This document shows positions 47,360 through 53,130 of a DNA stretch of 64,000 nucleotides, in pieces (position 1 is the stretch's first letter; every line of letters starts with the position of its first letter). Source of the DNA: Naegleria gruberi (Eukaryota); the NCBI GenBank assembly GCA_000004985.1, contig GG738928.1; one strand, 5' to 3'. The translations under genes were made by a program, and so were the position numbers. Below the pieces are notes generated by a model. That model saw only the letters and a program-made list of their open reading frames with translations, had not been told where the DNA came from and ran no database searches.

Positions 47360-48463
47360 CTATTGCAAAGAACAATTCTGTTTTTTTGAGGCAAAACTAG
47401 TGTGAAATCTGAAAGCCATGGCAGATCTGTAAACTTCATCAAAGACTGATTTGAGCCCCTCTTGTGTTAAGCTTGAACAGTAACCTATTTTTACGAGATG
47501 TGGAAAGCTATGAAGTTTTCTTTCCAGAGTATGTTGTCCTACTAGTGAAAAGGTATCCAAATCCTTTCCTGTTATTATAATATGAATTGGAATAAGGGGA
47601 AAAGTCATGGCAAGTTTTCTCAAATTCTGAAGAATACGTTTCTCAAATAATTGTTCATCATTCACAAAATTATTCAGTTCTGTACATTTACAAGTAAAAG
47701 CCACAACATTGAAAGGTTGCTTGATAACTTCTTGAACAATCTTCTCATTTGATAGAGACATGCACTGCATTGTGCACATTATCATACATCCATCAATCAT
47801 AATATTTGCTTCAAACAATGACTCCTTTTCCATCATACCCTCTTCTGCGAAGAAATTAGTACAATAAGTACAGAGTAAACTTGATTTTCCACTTTTAGGA
47901 AGCCCTACAATTCCAATATTCAGCCGTAAAGGTGTTGATATTGAACTACCCGCTCGTCCCAAGACAACATAAGGTGATTTACCATCATATTTTGGTAGAG
48001 AACTTTCTAATAATTCTCTTTCAAAATTAATCATTTCTCTAAAGATGTGAAATATTGTCTTGACAGAGTTTAATCTCAGCCCTAACAATTCTAATTGGTA
48101 AATGATAAAAGTCTTGTTCTCTTCCAAACTATTCTCTTTCAATTCTTCAAATTTCGGTAAATTCCTATATAATTGCAATAACTTTCTGTATTGATTTACA
48201 TCTACAATCCAATTAGACTTTGATCCTTCCTCTAAAATCATTCCTTCAATACAATTTACTACTCTCCTATAAATTTCCATTCTGCTCTTCATCAATTCCA
48301 TTCCGAAACGATTTAAAATTTCATCAACTTGTTCTTCATCTCTCAGAGAAACTGAGAGAAAATAAAGTAAATAATACCGATCAGCATAGCCCAGAAATTT
48401 AATGATCTCATTGAAACAATCATGTTGCTCTGAATACAACTGAGCAAGGAGGCAACTCGACAT
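47360..48463 (-). CDS. Atypical small-GTPase-like P-loop protein with a long N-terminal extension and a C-terminal CaaX box
   Basis: Walker A motif IGIVGLPKSGKSSLLCTY in the second half. The C-terminus ...KKQNCSLQ* is a CaaX prenylation motif (CSLQ). No clear DxxG/NKxD was read. Confidence 0.45.
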   Translation of the reverse strand: MSSCLLAQLYSEQHDCFNEIIKFLGYADRYYLLYFLSVSLRDEEQVDEILNRFGMELMKSRMEIYRRVVNCIEGMILEEGSKSNWIVDVNQYRKLLQLYRNLPKFEELKENSLEENKTFIIYQLELLGLRLNSVKTIFHIFREMINFERELLESSLPKYDGKSPYVVLGRAGSSISTPLRLNIGIVGLPKSGKSSLLCTYCTNFFAEEGMMEKESLFEANIMIDGCMIMCTMQCMSLSNEKIVQEVIKQPFNVVAFTCKCTELNNFVNDEQLFEKRILQNLRKLAMTFPLIPIHIIITGKDLDTFSLVGQHTLERKLHSFPHLVKIGYCSSLTQEGLKSVFDEVYRSAMAFRFHTSFASKKQNCSLQ

Positions 48464-48838: not shown

Positions 48839-51800
48839 ATGGCAAATCCAGCCAAATTAAAAAAAATGCGAACTTTATTATCTTTCGTAATCTTGCTCTA
48901 TTTATTCACTATTGTGGTCACAGGTGAGGTGAAATCCATTCAGCAACAACAGCAACGAGAATCCTCATTCACTTTCTTCCTGGATTCTTATCAAGGAACG
49001 GAAACAAATGTTTCATGTCTTGATGAATCCATTCCATGTGTTTACATGTCTCAAGTTATAGACTCGGCACGATCAATATTACAGCTGGGAAACAATTCCT
49101 CAACATTATCTTTAGAGATGAATATTCTAGTAAGAGGAGAAGTAATTGACTGCGATATTCTAATTGACTTTACTAATTTTACATCAAATTTTAAATTGAA
49201 TATTGTTGGGTGGGATGATGACGACTATTTCCTATCATCATGTTATCCTTTTCTACATGTAAATAGTAAAATAGATGAGTTGACCATTGTAAAGGGGTAT
49301 TCAATTCGAATAATAATTGTATTTAATTATGAAATGAAGAATTTATCCATTTCTAAATGTAAAGGAAGTCTTACTATTCAAACTTCAATTGAAAATGCAA
49401 ACATCTTGGAAAGCGAATTTAATTCATTAGAAATTACAAGTCAGATTCAAAATCTTGTTATACTAAACGATTCGATTACTTACTTACAAGGAAATTTGAA
49501 AGCTAAACAAGTGAAAATGGAAACTATTAATATTTCCAATTTTAAATTAGTGGAAATTAAGAATTGTCATTGGAGTTCATTCTCAGGGACAAGTTTATTT
49601 CATGGCGGAGAGAAATTCTCAATTCTTTCAAGTATTATTACAGGCCCAATGATGTTTGAAGTTGTGAGTGTTTTGGAAATAATCAACGTCACTGTTAGCA
49701 GGGTTAATTTTGAGCCAGAGAATGGAAATTTTTTTGGAATAGCCACAGTTGACCAAGTGACAATTGAAAGATGTAATTTTGTGGATAATACTATTGGTGG
49801 AAGTATGATTTCAGTACAACGTTGTAAAAATTTACTTATTGTTAATTGTAAACATTCCAATAATTTATCCAAGTTTATTACAATCCTGTCATCTAGTAGG
49901 AATCGAATTACAATTCAAGATTCTGAATTTTTCAATAATCAGGCAAGTGATGCCTTAATTGTTTTTGATTCCAATTATGTTGTAGATAGCACTATATTAC
50001 TATTAGATAATTGTAATTTTGTGAATAATATTGGAGGATTGACTGGATCCGCTCTGAAAATAACTAAAGCTAATGTTCTCATTTCGAGTTGTAACTTTTC
50101 ATTTAATAAGGCAGGTTATGGAGGAGCTGTCTATATGATAAGTCAACTTTCTACTGTTATCGAATATTCAAATTTCACTAACAATGAAGCAACTCAATCA
50201 GGCGGTGCAATTTATGTGGGAGATGTTTCAAATCTACGACAATGGGAAACAGTAGAAACAATTTGTGATTCTAATAACGCATTGGAAGCTGGAGGATGTT
50301 TATATATGAAAGGTAAATCAAAGATTGATGTGGTGTATAATTTTGCTGGAATCAATAAGGCAATTTGTTATGGTAACAATATTGCTACAGAACTCACAAA
50401 AAAGAAGTTTGAATTTAGACTCAATGGATTCGAATATCAATTGATTACCAATCAGAGTATTCAAATTTATCCAGGAGAATCCCTGGATTTGAGAATTATA
50501 TTATCAGATAGATACAATCAGAAAAGTGTAATGCTTCCTGAAAATCAAATGTCTATGAAAATCAATTCTAATAATTTAGTTTTACAAACACAAGGTTTTA
50601 CAAGCGGAAATGATAGCATACTTTCGAATAATATTCAAATACTTCTTAAAGAATATCAATATGCCAACTTCCATGAAGAAACAACTTTTTCATTCATATT
50701 GAAAGATATCGAACATTCGATTAGAATGAAATTGGTTGATTGTCCACCAGGATATACCATTTCTAAAAATTATGGAAATGTCAAATGTGAATACATTCCA
50801 ATAGAAATCATTCTTCCAGCTGCTATTGTTGGTGCTATTTCCTTAATTATTATATTTGTGACTGTAATTTTGGTGGGAATTTATATTGTTAAAAAACTCA
50901 AAAAATTGAGAAGACAAGAAAGAGCAGAAAAGGAAATTCAAAAGAAATTTATTGATAATTCTTTTGTTTTCAATAATGGCAGCAATGGTTCAGATTTGAG
51001 TGTTCCACTGGTTGAAAAATCTTTCAACTCTGAGGATTCTATTCGATACACTATTCCAATTGCAGAAATTGATATATTATCTAAAATTGGAGAAGGATCT
51101 AACGGATTAGTATATAAAGCAAAGTGGAACAGGACAGATGTTGCCATAAAACAATTGAAAACTTTAGGAGAAGAGGATGATGAAGAGTTTGAAAGAGAAG
51201 CTCTTTTAATGAGCTCATTAAGACATCCGTCAGTTGTTAGTTGCTACGGAGTTTCAATAACCAACGACAGCAAGTATATGGTTGTAAGTACTTACTTTTG
51301 AGAAATAATTTGAATTTATTGTATATTAGGTGGAATACTTGGAAAATGGAAGTCTTGAGAAGGCACTCTACAAGTCTAAAATTGGAAAAGAAAAATTGTC
51401 ATTCGAAACTAAATTGAATATTCTCTTGGATGTTGGAAAGGGTATGACCTATCTCCATTCGATAAGACCTAACAAGATTATTCATAGGTAAGTTTAGTTT
51501 CTATTTACTTTGGAGAGTTAACAATTTTCAGAGATTTGAAACCGGGAAATATTTTGCTTACCAAAAATTTAAATGCCAAAGTGAGTGACTTTGGGCTCAG
51601 TAAGATGGTTTCGAATAATACAGCCACAATGACCACAAATGTTGGAACCTTATTATACATTGTAAGTTTTTCACAATATTCCATTTAACTAATTTAGCAA
51701 TTTCCATCTTTAGGCACCAGTAAGTTTTAACAACAAATTAATCATTGATTTATTATTTAATATTTTAGGAATTATTATCTAATTATCACAAAGGACAAAC

Positions 51801-52161
51801 AACAAAATTGGATGTTTATTCATTTGGACTAATCATGTGGGAAGTTCTATTTGAAATGGTTCCATTTTCCAATGAACTATCTGATGCAACAACACCATTC
51901 TCTATTTTATTACAAGTAACCAATGGATTAAGACCTTCTCTTTCTGTTATGGGAGAACATTTCGAATATATTCAAGAATGGATTGAAGATCACTTTACAA
52001 TGAGAGAAATTCAAAAAATTGGAAAGCAAACCATTGAAAAATGTTTAAAAGATTATATTGAAGTGATGAAACTCTGTTGGTATAAGGAACCAAGCAATAG
52101 ACCAGAATTTATTGAAATTACAGAAAGTTTAGAATTAATTATTGAACAAATAAGGAAATGA
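48839..52161 (+). CDS. Receptor-like Ser/Thr (TKL-type) kinase with a Pmp-like parallel beta-helix ectodomain; 5 exons, join(48839..51283, 51330..51487, 51532..51661, 51714..51719, 51769..52161)
   Basis: Signal peptide LLSFVILLYLFTIVVTG. Ectodomain with repeated GGx[ILV]...FxxN units (FVDNTIGGSMI; FVNNIGGLTGSAL; FSFNKAGYGGAVY; FTNNEATQSGGAIY). TM helice IILPAAIVGAISLIIIFVTVILVGIYIV. Kinase: GEGSNGLVYKA, VAIKQLK, ...YMVV|VEYLENGSL...IIHR|DLKPGNILL...VSDFGLSK...TLLYI|AP|ELLSNYHKG.... The 6-nt micro-exon gcacca supplies the A and P of the APE motif. Donors GTAAGT at all four junctions. Confidence 0.75.
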
Positions 52162-52560: not shown

Positions 52561-53130
52561 ATGAACCGTATTTCTGAACCTAATCATACATTACATAATA
52601 CATGGACCTTATGGTATCACAGTCCTAGAAGTAAAATTAATGAACAAAATTATAAGGCTTTTTTCACCAAAGTTAAAGCTTTTACTACAATAGAGGATTT
52701 TTGGCGATTATTTAATAATGTTCGTTCACCATCATGTTTACCAATCGGAACAACATATTATTTAATGAAGGATGCTATTAAACCAGAGTGGGAAGATCCA
52801 AATTGTATCAATGGAGGAGAAATGGTTTTTAGTTTTGCTAAAAAATCAAGACAAGAAGCTGATCAATGGTGGTTGTTCTCTTGTATTATGTGTATCGGAG
52901 AAAACTTTATTGGATTGGGAGATCATATTTGTGGATGTACAGTTGCAAACAGAAAGAGTATGATTAGAATTAGTTTTTGGCTTGATACTGATGAGGATGA
53001 ATACGTCAAACGTTTGGAAGACCAATGCAAAGGTGCATTTGACATTCTCAGTGCTGGCTCAACCTTGTTCAAATTCGATTTTCGATCATTTAGAGCCAAT
53101 TTGTCCAAGATATCGAAAGCTGATGATTAA
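52561..53130 (+). CDS. Translation initiation factor eIF4E family member (intronless)
   Basis: HTLHNTWTLWYHSPRSKINEQNY...TIEDFWRLFNNVRSPSCLPIGTTYYLMKDAIKPEWEDPNCINGGEMVFSF...GCTVANRKSMIRISFWLD. These match the cap-binding Trp positions and the WED motif. Confidence 0.8.
   Translation: MNRISEPNHTLHNTWTLWYHSPRSKINEQNYKAFFTKVKAFTTIEDFWRLFNNVRSPSCLPIGTTYYLMKDAIKPEWEDPNCINGGEMVFSFAKKSRQEADQWWLFSCIMCIGENFIGLGDHICGCTVANRKSMIRISFWLDTDEDEYVKRLEDQCKGAFDILSAGSTLFKFDFRSFRANLSKISKADD

What the first reader, a model, noticed from the sequence alone, without database searches (positions are those of the whole stretch)
51714..51719. A 6-nt micro-exon encodes the A-P of the kinase APE motif
Between the donor at 51662 and the acceptor at 51768 the only way to keep the frame and restore the invariant activation-segment APE motif (…TLLYI|AP|ELLSNYHKG…) is a 6-nt exon gcacca (51714-51719). 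It is flanked by TAG upstream and GTAAGT downstream. Skipping it would delete AP but stay in frame. It is one of the smallest exons I could justify from sequence alone.
Basis: inference. Interest (0 to 1): 0.5.

Follow-up and report, generated by a model that had tools for sequence, protein, structure and literature searches.

The report
Six-base exon in Naegleria kinase gene
A real-looking six-base exon, missed by the public Naegleria gruberi annotation, supplies the Ala-Pro of a receptor kinase's conserved APE motif; it corrects one gene model but is a known kind of feature.

Summary
The window is Naegleria gruberi DNA. The + strand gene 48839-52161 encodes a single-pass receptor kinase. Intron 51662-51713 is 52 nt (GTAAGT...TTTAG). 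GCACCA at 51714-51719 encodes Ala-Pro. Intron 51720-51768 is 49 nt (GTAAGT...TTTAG). The next exon starts GAA TTA TTA.

The public protein model skips the hexamer (TLLYI--ELL). Of 229 related kinases fetched here, it is the only one without two residues before the Glu.

Comparative evidence supports the micro-exon:
- Each intron position occurs alone in annotated or metagenomic Naegleria homologues.
- A near-identical strain keeps the structure, with one synonymous change (CCA to CCT).
- A divergent full-length homologue (40% identity, introns not detectably similar) keeps AG|GCACCT|GTAAGT. It also has an obligatory 5-nt exon just upstream.

Including Ala-Pro raises the Pfam kinase scores by 11-17 bits. 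No transcript data could be reached, so inclusion is inferred, and regulated skipping is not excluded.

Verdict: observation confirmed, interpretation supported. This is a new member of a known kind (an ultra-short coding micro-exon missed by annotation), of modest interest.

The parts
48839..52161 (+). Receptor kinase gene (1043 aa when spliced as proposed). It has a signal peptide, a PMP-like beta-helix repeat ectodomain, one transmembrane helix, and a TKL-like (similar to the tyrosine-kinase-like kinase group) Ser/Thr kinase domain.
   Evidence: ORF list and spliced translation. It is 874/876 identical to the N. gruberi 'predicted protein' P0001. Pfam gives PF07714 184.8 bits and PF00069 177.7 bits. 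The ectodomain has a weak Chlam_PMP match and beta-helix/PMP homologues.
48839..51283 (+). Exon 1: ectodomain, transmembrane helix, juxtamembrane region and kinase N-lobe up to ...SKYMVV.
   Evidence: Continuous ORF and splicing script.
51284..51329 (+). Intron 1, 46 nt, GTAAGT...TTAG.
   Evidence: L037 has an intron at the same position.
51330..51487 (+). Exon 2 (EYLENGSL...KIIHR).
51488..51531 (+). Intron 2, 44 nt, GTAAGT...TCAG, splitting HR|DLKPGN.
   Evidence: L037 has no intron here.
51532..51661 (+). Exon 3 (DLKPGN...DFG...NVGTLLYI).
51662..51713 (+). Intron 3, 52 nt, GTAAGT...CTAAT...TTTCCATCTTTAG, phase 0 between Ile and Ala.
   Evidence: The same position is used in the annotated N. 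lovaniensis homologue (L004 2338-2398) and in L037 (3280-3319).
51714..51719 (+). Micro-exon GCACCA, encoding the Ala-Pro of the APE motif.
   Evidence: It is conserved as GCACCT in L035 (633-638) and in L037 (3320-3325). The public model P0001 lacks it.
51720..51768 (+). Intron 4, 49 nt, GTAAGT...TTTAG, phase 0 between Pro and Glu.
   Evidence: The same position is used in N. fowleri L005 (2770-2892), L001 (616-661), L002 (1775-1817) and L037 (3326-3374).
51769..52161 (+). Exon 5 (ELLSNYHKG...DVYSFG...RPEF...EQIRK, stop TGA at 52159-52161).

Best explanation
The gene is a Naegleria gruberi single-pass receptor Ser/Thr kinase. Its pre-mRNA carries four short GTAAGT...YAG introns. Introns 3 (52 nt) and 4 (49 nt) lie only 6 nt apart, so the hexamer GCACCA is a free-standing, constitutively included exon. 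It supplies the Ala-Pro of the activation-segment APE motif (GTLLYI-AP-ELL).

The micro-exon exists because this gene carries two intron positions at once. One lies before Ala and one after Pro. Relatives carry them singly.

Splicing mechanism (inferred): each short intron is recognised as a unit (intron definition), so exon length does not limit recognition. The two introns are probably removed one after the other. Either order passes through an intermediate with the same layout as an ordinary gene in a relative. Removing intron 3 first gives the L001/N. fowleri layout. Removing intron 4 first gives the N. lovaniensis layout.

The public model, which removes 51662-51768 as a single 107-nt intron and lacks Ala-Pro, is a gene-prediction error.

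Shown here: the sequence anatomy, the uniqueness of the solution, conservation in homologues, and the gain in kinase-profile score. Inferred: actual inclusion in mRNA, the order of intron removal, and the functional damage from skipping.
For: - Anatomy and the unique in-frame solution.
- Far beyond chance.
- The public model skips the hexamer (TLLYI--ELLSNYHKG).
- Of 229 fetched kinases with a recognisable DFG...GTxx[YWF]x...E segment, 228 have exactly two residues before Glu (201 AP, 16 SP, and others). The single exception is that public model.
- Adding Ala-Pro raises PF07714 from 174.1 to 184.8 bits and PF00069 from 160.7 to 177.7 bits.
- With Ala-Pro, the alignment to the CTR1 kinase (3PPZ) runs gap-free from DFG through APE.
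- Intron before Ala: N. lovaniensis L004, TATATG|GTAGGT...61 nt...AAAAG|GCACCTGAA.
- Intron after the second residue: N. fowleri L005 GCGAGA|GTAAGT...123 nt...ACAG|GAAATG; L001 ATTGCACCA|GTAAGT...46 nt...CACAG|GAAATT; L002.
- L035, an independent assembly of a ~98.5% identical, syntenic strain, keeps both introns. Its only change in the hexamer is synonymous (CCA to CCT).
- L037, a full-length 1048-aa homologue (40% identity overall, 65% in the kinase domain), has AAAAG|GCACCT|GTAAGT between introns of 40 and 49 nt. The interiors of those introns are not significantly similar to those of the window (z 0.5-1.0). A 5-nt exon (ATATT) just upstream is indispensable for the reading frame. So these organisms, if the gene is functional, must splice exons this small.
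Against: - No transcript evidence was found. No spliced copy of this gene exists in the protein or contig collections.
- A 107-nt intron is not abnormal for this genome. Candidate GTAAGT introns in the window span about 44-215 nt, so intron length does not discriminate between the models.
- Intron 3 contains an earlier AG (51696-51697) that could compete as an acceptor. It would give a frameshifting 22-nt exon.
- The branch points were not established.
- The single synonymous change in L035 is weak evidence on its own. One in three random substitutions in GCACCA is synonymous.
- The origin of L037 is unknown. It could be a paralogue in the same organism or an orthologue from another species.
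Confidence: 0.86

Rival explanations
1. The public annotation is right. 51662-51768 is one 107-nt intron, the protein lacks Ala-Pro, and the internal AG|GCACCA|GTAAGT is a relic or coincidence.
For: This is the deposited gene model. It stays in frame. Introns of about 100 nt occur elsewhere in the window.
Against: - The hexamer with both splice sites is kept in L037, although the intron interiors show no detectable similarity.
- It is also kept in L035, with only a synonymous change.
- Chance expectation for the motif is about zero.
- No other kinase among 228 relatives lacks these two residues.
- The kinase profile scores drop by 11-17 bits without them.
- With short, intron-defined introns, the donor at 51662 would have to ignore a good acceptor 52 nt away, and the strong internal donor would go unused.
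Confidence: 0.04
2. The 6-nt exon is alternatively included. Inclusion gives an active kinase. In-frame skipping gives an isoform with a shortened P+1 loop (the substrate-binding end of the activation segment) that is inactive or altered, as a form of regulation.
For: Skipping preserves the reading frame. Exon skipping was detected in the N. gruberi transcriptome at some level (PMC6142364). Coding micro-exons in plants show some alternative splicing, although they are mostly included (PMC8831610).
Against: Intron retention, not exon skipping, dominated in all but one of the species surveyed (PMC6142364). In L037 the neighbouring 5-nt exon cannot be skipped without a frameshift, so micro-exon inclusion there must be efficient. 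No data show a skipped isoform other than a computational gene model.
Confidence: 0.09
3. The locus is a decaying pseudogene or an assembly artefact, so the splice pattern has no functional meaning.
For: None specific, apart from the lack of expression evidence.
Against: - The spliced ORF is intact at 1043 aa and carries all the catalytic motifs (GxGxxG, VAIK, HRDLKPGN, DFG, APE, RPEF).
- An independent metagenome assembly reproduces the structure.
- Substitutions against L035 are 9 synonymous to 3 non-synonymous.
Confidence: 0.01

Closest known systems
Ultra-short (1-15 nt) coding micro-exons of plants that reference annotations miss (Yu et al. 2022, PMC8831610)
   Same: Both are internal coding exons of a few bases, flanked by canonical introns with strong GTRAGT donors. 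Both are conserved among homologues, encode part of a conserved protein motif, and are missed or mis-modelled by gene predictors. Adjacent micro-exons also occur in plants (5 nt + 12 nt in a rice transcript), comparable to the 5 + 6 nt pair in L037.
   Different: This case is in a heterolobosean amoeboflagellate, not a plant. The flanking introns are very short (40-52 nt). There is no RNA validation here, whereas the plant cases have RNA-seq and RT-PCR support.
Neuronal micro-exons of animals (3-27 nt, SRRM4-dependent; recalled from my own knowledge of the literature, not tested here)
   Same: Both are in-frame, multiple-of-three insertions of one to a few residues in folded protein domains.
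   Different: The animal micro-exons are alternatively spliced, tissue-regulated, embedded in long introns and dependent on dedicated enhancer proteins. The Naegleria exon sits in an invariant catalytic-core motif, between minimal introns, and is most likely constitutive.
Annotated Naegleria homologues that carry only one of the two introns: N. lovaniensis C9374_013523 (P0084) and N. fowleri FDP41_009158 (P0082)
   Same: They belong to the same receptor-kinase family (a PMP-like ectodomain gene lies directly upstream). Their phase-0 intron positions are identical: before Ala in N. lovaniensis, and after the second residue in N. fowleri.
   Different: Each has one intron, so no micro-exon arises. 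The window gene, L035 and L037 have both. Other relatives (P0080/L039, P0081/L040) have neither.
Raf-like/TKL Ser/Thr kinases such as Arabidopsis CTR1 (PDB 3PPZ) and TAK1
   Same: These are the best solved-structure matches to the kinase domain (E 8e-42 for CTR1). The DFG-to-APE spacing is the same when Ala-Pro is included.
   Different: The Naegleria protein is a transmembrane receptor with a beta-helix/PMP-like ectodomain. Identity is only about 35-40%. No phylogeny was made, so the group assignment is provisional.

Membership tests
Coding micro-exon (internal exon of 15 nt or less between two spliceosomal introns) | A canonical acceptor (YAG) immediately upstream and a canonical donor (GT, here GTAAGT) immediately downstream | tested here: met
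   TTTAG|GCACCA|GTAAGT at 51709-51725.
Coding micro-exon (internal exon of 15 nt or less between two spliceosomal introns) | Both flanking introns are viable in size and signals for this genome | tested here: met
   They are 52 and 49 nt, against 46 and 44 nt for the gene's other introns and 40-49 nt in L037. YTRAY-like motifs (CTAAT, TTAAC) and a pyrimidine run precede the acceptor. The branch points themselves were not determined.
Coding micro-exon (internal exon of 15 nt or less between two spliceosomal introns) | Inclusion preserves the frame and restores conserved residues | tested here: met
   GTLLYIAPELL is restored. Pfam scores rise by 10.7 and 17.0 bits. 228 of 229 relatives have two residues there. 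The alignment to CTR1 is gap-free.
Coding micro-exon (internal exon of 15 nt or less between two spliceosomal introns) | The exon and its splice sites are conserved in homologues while the flanking intron sequence diverges | tested here: met
   L037 has AAAAG|GCACCT|GTAAGT with intron interiors not similar to the window (z 0.5-1.0). L035 has GCACCT, a synonymous change.
Coding micro-exon (internal exon of 15 nt or less between two spliceosomal introns) | Spliced transcripts contain the exon | not testable with these tools
   No transcript-derived copy appeared in the collections. N. gruberi RNA-seq exists (PRJEB23822, cited in PMC6142364) but cannot be queried here.
Eukaryotic protein kinase domain (Pfam PF00069 / PF07714) | Profile match above the curated threshold, with the catalytic motifs GxGxxG, VAIK, HRDLKxxN, DFG and APE | tested here: met
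   184.8 and 177.7 bits against cut-offs of 23.1 and 31.7. The motifs are visible in the translation. APE is present only if the micro-exon is included.
TKL group (Raf/MLK/IRAK-like kinases) | Phylogenetic placement within the TKL group | tested here: inconclusive
   The best PDB matches are CTR1, TAK1, TNNI3K, ZAK and RIPK4, and plant receptor kinases are among the best database hits. No tree was built.
PMP / right-handed beta-helix repeat ectodomain (PF02415, PF13229) | Repeat profile match above threshold | tested here: inconclusive
   Chlam_PMP scores 15.3 bits, below the cut-off of 20.6. However, the ectodomain hits many PF02415/PF13229 proteins at E down to 2e-22.

The most novel reading that the evidence does not exclude
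The end of the activation segment in this Naegleria receptor-kinase family is a hotspot of intron turnover. Three intron positions lie within 11 nt, and they occur in every combination, from none to all three. This produces obligatory 5-nt and 6-nt exons. An early-branching, intron-defining spliceosome would then routinely handle exons shorter than the footprint of splice-site recognition, which would require ordered, sequential intron removal. A further possibility is that in-frame skipping of the Ala-Pro exon serves as a switch producing kinase-impaired receptor isoforms.
Probability: 0.15. Interest if true: 0.55.

Novelty: new member of a known kind. Interest (0 to 1): 0.36.

Why it matters
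The deposited N. gruberi protein for this locus lacks two residues of an invariant catalytic-core motif. A kinome survey would therefore score it as aberrant or as a pseudokinase. The corrected model is a canonical active kinase.

The case also shows that gene predictors miss ultra-short exons in Naegleria, as has been documented systematically for plants. Other Naegleria gene models with small in-frame 'deletions' at intron sites deserve re-inspection.

The 5 + 6 nt tandem micro-exons in a relative are a compact natural substrate for asking how an intron-definition spliceosome copes with exons of only a few bases.

Beyond that, the feature is an ordinary, if extreme, example of a known phenomenon.

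Tried and rejected
- **Transcript evidence.** Three protein searches were run, the last with a 118-aa query centred on the exon to catch short fragments. An exact look-up of the last-exon ORF was also run. No spliced copy was found. The searches appear to return only proteins of roughly 0.55-1.75 times the query length.
- **Metagenome scan with the kinase domain.** It returned 29 loci, all distant TKL kinases (26-48% identity). They were of no use for intron comparison.
- **N. gruberi paralogues P0085 and P0092.** Their DNA is not on record in the contig collection.
- **L003 (P0094).** The contig ends right after ...SPE with no interpretable donor, so it is uninformative.
- **Intron length as a discriminator.** Rejected: candidate introns in the window range from about 44 to 215 nt, so 107 nt is not unusual. 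GTAAGT itself is not rare in this AT-rich DNA (29 copies on the two strands).
- **Origin of intron 3 by tandem duplication of intron 4, or from a repeated intron-generating element.** The two introns show no significant similarity to each other or to other introns, so there is no support.
- **The N. gruberi genome paper (Cell 2010).** It is not held in the library.
- **Literature search for 'Naegleria' plus 'microexon'.** Nothing relevant was found.
- **Structure prediction with and without Ala-Pro.** Considered but not run, because it would not decide what the cell splices.

Full report
**What is in the sequence**

- Exon 3 ends ...GGA ACC TTA TTA TAC ATT at 51661.
- GTAAGT starts at 51662, and TTTAG ends at 51713.
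- GCACCA occupies 51714-51719.
- A second GTAAGT starts at 51720, and TTTAG ends at 51768.
- The reading frame resumes at 51769 with GAA TTA TTA TCT AAT TAT CAC AAA GGA.

I spliced exons 48839-51283, 51330-51487, 51532-51661, 51714-51719 and 51769-52161. This gives an uninterrupted 1043-aa protein containing ...NVGTLLYIAPELLSNYHKG.... Leaving out the hexamer also stays in frame and gives ...TLLYIELLSNYHKG.... The four introns are 46, 44, 52 and 49 nt, and all have GTAAGT donors and YAG acceptors.

I enumerated every AG...GT combination inside 51662-51768. The only in-frame, stop-free internal exon is 51714-51719. The motif AGGCNCCNGTAAGT occurs once in the window and in 0 of 100 shuffles. The double-intron pattern behaves the same way.

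**Whose gene it is**

The spliced protein is 874/876 identical, over residues 168-1043, to a 'predicted protein' of Naegleria gruberi (P0001). So the window is N. gruberi nuclear DNA. The two differences are exactly the Ala-Pro: the public model treats 51662-51768 as a single 107-nt intron.

The protein is a single-pass receptor.
- It has a signal peptide.
- Its ectodomain is related to PMP/right-handed beta-helix repeat proteins. Hits carrying PF02415/PF13229 reach E = 2e-22. The Pfam repeat match in this protein itself is sub-threshold.
- It has one transmembrane helix.
- Its kinase domain has Raf-like/TKL kinases as its best solved relatives (CTR1 3PPZ at E 8e-42, then TAK1).

**Is Ala-Pro needed?**

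With the hexamer, the kinase domain scores 184.8 bits (PF07714) and 177.7 bits (PF00069). Without it, the scores are 174.1 and 160.7 bits. With Ala-Pro, the alignment to CTR1 runs from DFG through APE without a gap.

Of these, 228 have n = 2: 201 AP, 16 SP, 4 PP, 3 DP, and single AR, SN, CP and AN. The only case with n = 0 is P0001, the public model of this locus.

From established kinase structural biology (not tested here), the Glu of APE anchors the activation segment to the C-lobe through a conserved Arg. The preceding residues form the end of the P+1 loop. A two-residue deletion there is expected to be damaging.

**Comparative evidence for the two introns**

Relatives carry each intron position separately.
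- In the annotated N. lovaniensis homologue (P0084, locus L004), the sequence is TTT TAT ATG|GTAGGT...61 nt...AAAAG|GCA CCT GAA CTA. The intron sits before Ala and none follows Pro.
- In the annotated N. fowleri homologue (P0082, L005), it is TAT ATG GCG AGA|GTAAGT...123 nt...AACAG|GAA ATG. The intron sits after the second residue and none precedes it.
- Two metagenomic heterolobosean genes show the same downstream position. L001 has TAT ATT GCA CCA|GTAAGT...46 nt...CACAG|GAA ATT. L002 has ATG CCA AAT|GTAAGT...43 nt...TTAG|GAA ATG.
- Two other close relatives (P0080/L039 and P0081/L040) have neither intron.

The window gene combines both positions, and that combination creates the 6-nt exon.

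**Conservation of the micro-exon itself**

The third protein search recovered two informative contigs from one metagenome (ERZ929261 / ERR1078381).

L035 is syntenic, with the kinase 3' end followed by an eIF4E gene, and about 98.5% identical to the window. It keeps both introns and has GCACCT in place of GCACCA, a synonymous third-position change. Overall it shows 12 exonic substitutions in 891 nt (9 synonymous, 3 not). It also shows 3 substitutions plus one 2-nt indel in 191 intronic nt. This independent assembly rules out an assembly artefact, but by itself it is weak evidence of constraint.

L037 is much more telling. It encodes a full-length 1048-aa homologue with the same architecture. 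Identity is 40% overall, 65% in the kinase domain and 28% in the ectodomain. Its sequence reads ...GGA ACT CTA TTA T|GTAAGT...45 nt...TAAAG|AT ATT|GTAAGT...40 nt...AAAAG|GCA CCT|GTAAGT...49 nt...AATAG|GAG TTA CTT. This translates to GTLL-Y-I-AP-ELLSNHHRG.

So the same 6-nt exon is present between introns at the same two positions. The intron interiors are not significantly similar to those of the window (z 0.5-1.0 against shuffles), while AG|GCACCN|GTAAGTTTT is invariant in the three-way alignment.

L037 also has a third intron inside the Tyr codon, which creates a 5-nt exon (ATATT). That exon cannot be skipped without a frameshift. The intact 1048-aa ORF therefore implies that this organism splices exons of 5-6 nt efficiently.

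**How it most likely works**

*Shown:* the anatomy, the uniqueness of the solution, the conservation, and the gain in profile score.

*Inferred:* the short introns are recognised individually (intron definition), so the exon between them need not be recognised as a unit. The U1 pairing region of the intron-4 donor and the AG|G of the intron-3 acceptor are only a few bases apart. The introns are therefore probably removed one after the other. Either order generates an intermediate that has the normal structure of a relative's gene: the L001/N. fowleri layout after intron 3 is removed, or the N. lovaniensis layout after intron 4 is removed.

In intron 3, a CTAAT/TTAAC branch-like motif is followed by an AG only 5-9 nt away (51696-51697). 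A pyrimidine run (TTTCCATCTTT) then precedes the AG at 51712-51713. The distal AG is the productive acceptor. Use of the proximal AG would give a 22-nt exon and a frameshift.

Inclusion is most likely constitutive. In the cross-species survey that included N. gruberi, intron retention exceeded exon skipping in all but one species (PMC6142364).

**Caveats**

No RNA evidence could be reached. A 107-nt intron is not abnormal in this window, where candidate introns range from about 44 to 215 nt. The case therefore rests on motif restoration and conservation, not on intron size. Whether L037 is a paralogue or an orthologue from another species is unknown. In-frame skipping as a regulated event cannot be excluded.

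**Comparison with what is known**

Ultra-short coding micro-exons that annotations miss are well documented in plants. They range down to 1 nt, have strongly conserved GTRAGT donors, and include adjacent pairs such as 5 + 12 nt (PMC8831610). Animal neuronal micro-exons are a regulated variant of the same kind of feature (from my own knowledge).

A full-text search found no report of micro-exons in Naegleria.

This is therefore a new member of a known kind, and a correction to a public gene model. It is not a new mechanism.

**Verdict**

My confidence that the hexamer is a genuine exon of the main mRNA is about 0.86. Interest is modest (0.36). It is raised slightly by the tandem 5 + 6 nt exons in a relative and by the mosaic of intron positions around the APE motif.

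Noticed in passing
L037 3275-3279 and 3320-3325: A divergent full-length homologue has two consecutive micro-exons, ATATT (5 nt, completing the Tyr codon and adding Ile) and GCACCT (6 nt, Ala-Pro). They are separated by a 40-nt intron and flanked by introns of 45 and 49 nt. The 5-nt exon is obligatory for the reading frame.
   Followed up: yes
window 49130-49339 and 48839-48865: The public N. gruberi model P0001 starts at the tenth codon (MRTLL...). It also removes an in-frame, stop-free 210-nt stretch (aa 98-167 of the continuous ORF) as an intron. That stretch aligns colinearly with contiguous coding sequence in L037 (E 3e-11), so the annotated intron is probably spurious.
   Followed up: partly
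L004 1-2875 (N. lovaniensis) and L005 1-3300 (N. fowleri): In both annotated genomes, a PMP-repeat gene ends 45-90 nt upstream of the kinase gene. The N. lovaniensis kinase model begins inside the transmembrane/juxtamembrane segment (MCAFYIIKKFKLLQEKERAEK). The receptor appears to have been split into two gene models.
   Followed up: partly
L005 ~2763-2771; L002 ~1766-1820; proteins P0093, P0236: Family members vary the APE tripeptide: ARE in N. fowleri P0082, PNE in L002, SNE in N. lovaniensis P0093 and ANE in N. gruberi P0236. The spacing is always kept. The Glu is invariant but the Ala-Pro is not.
   Followed up: no
window 51488-51531 versus L035 ~409-450: In the near-identical strain, the intron-2 donor is GTTAGT instead of GTAAGT, and the intron is 2 nt shorter. 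L037 lacks this intron altogether.
   Followed up: no
window 52561-53130 (+); L035 1486-2055, 2536-3006, 3335-4813: An intronless eIF4E-like ORF (189 aa) lies directly downstream of the kinase gene and is syntenic in L035. There, a second IF4E gene and a tyrosyl-tRNA synthetase follow.
   Followed up: no
window 47360-48463 (-): A 367-aa ORF upstream on the opposite strand has a P-loop-like GLPKSGKSSLL motif (possibly a GTPase). It was not examined.
   Followed up: no
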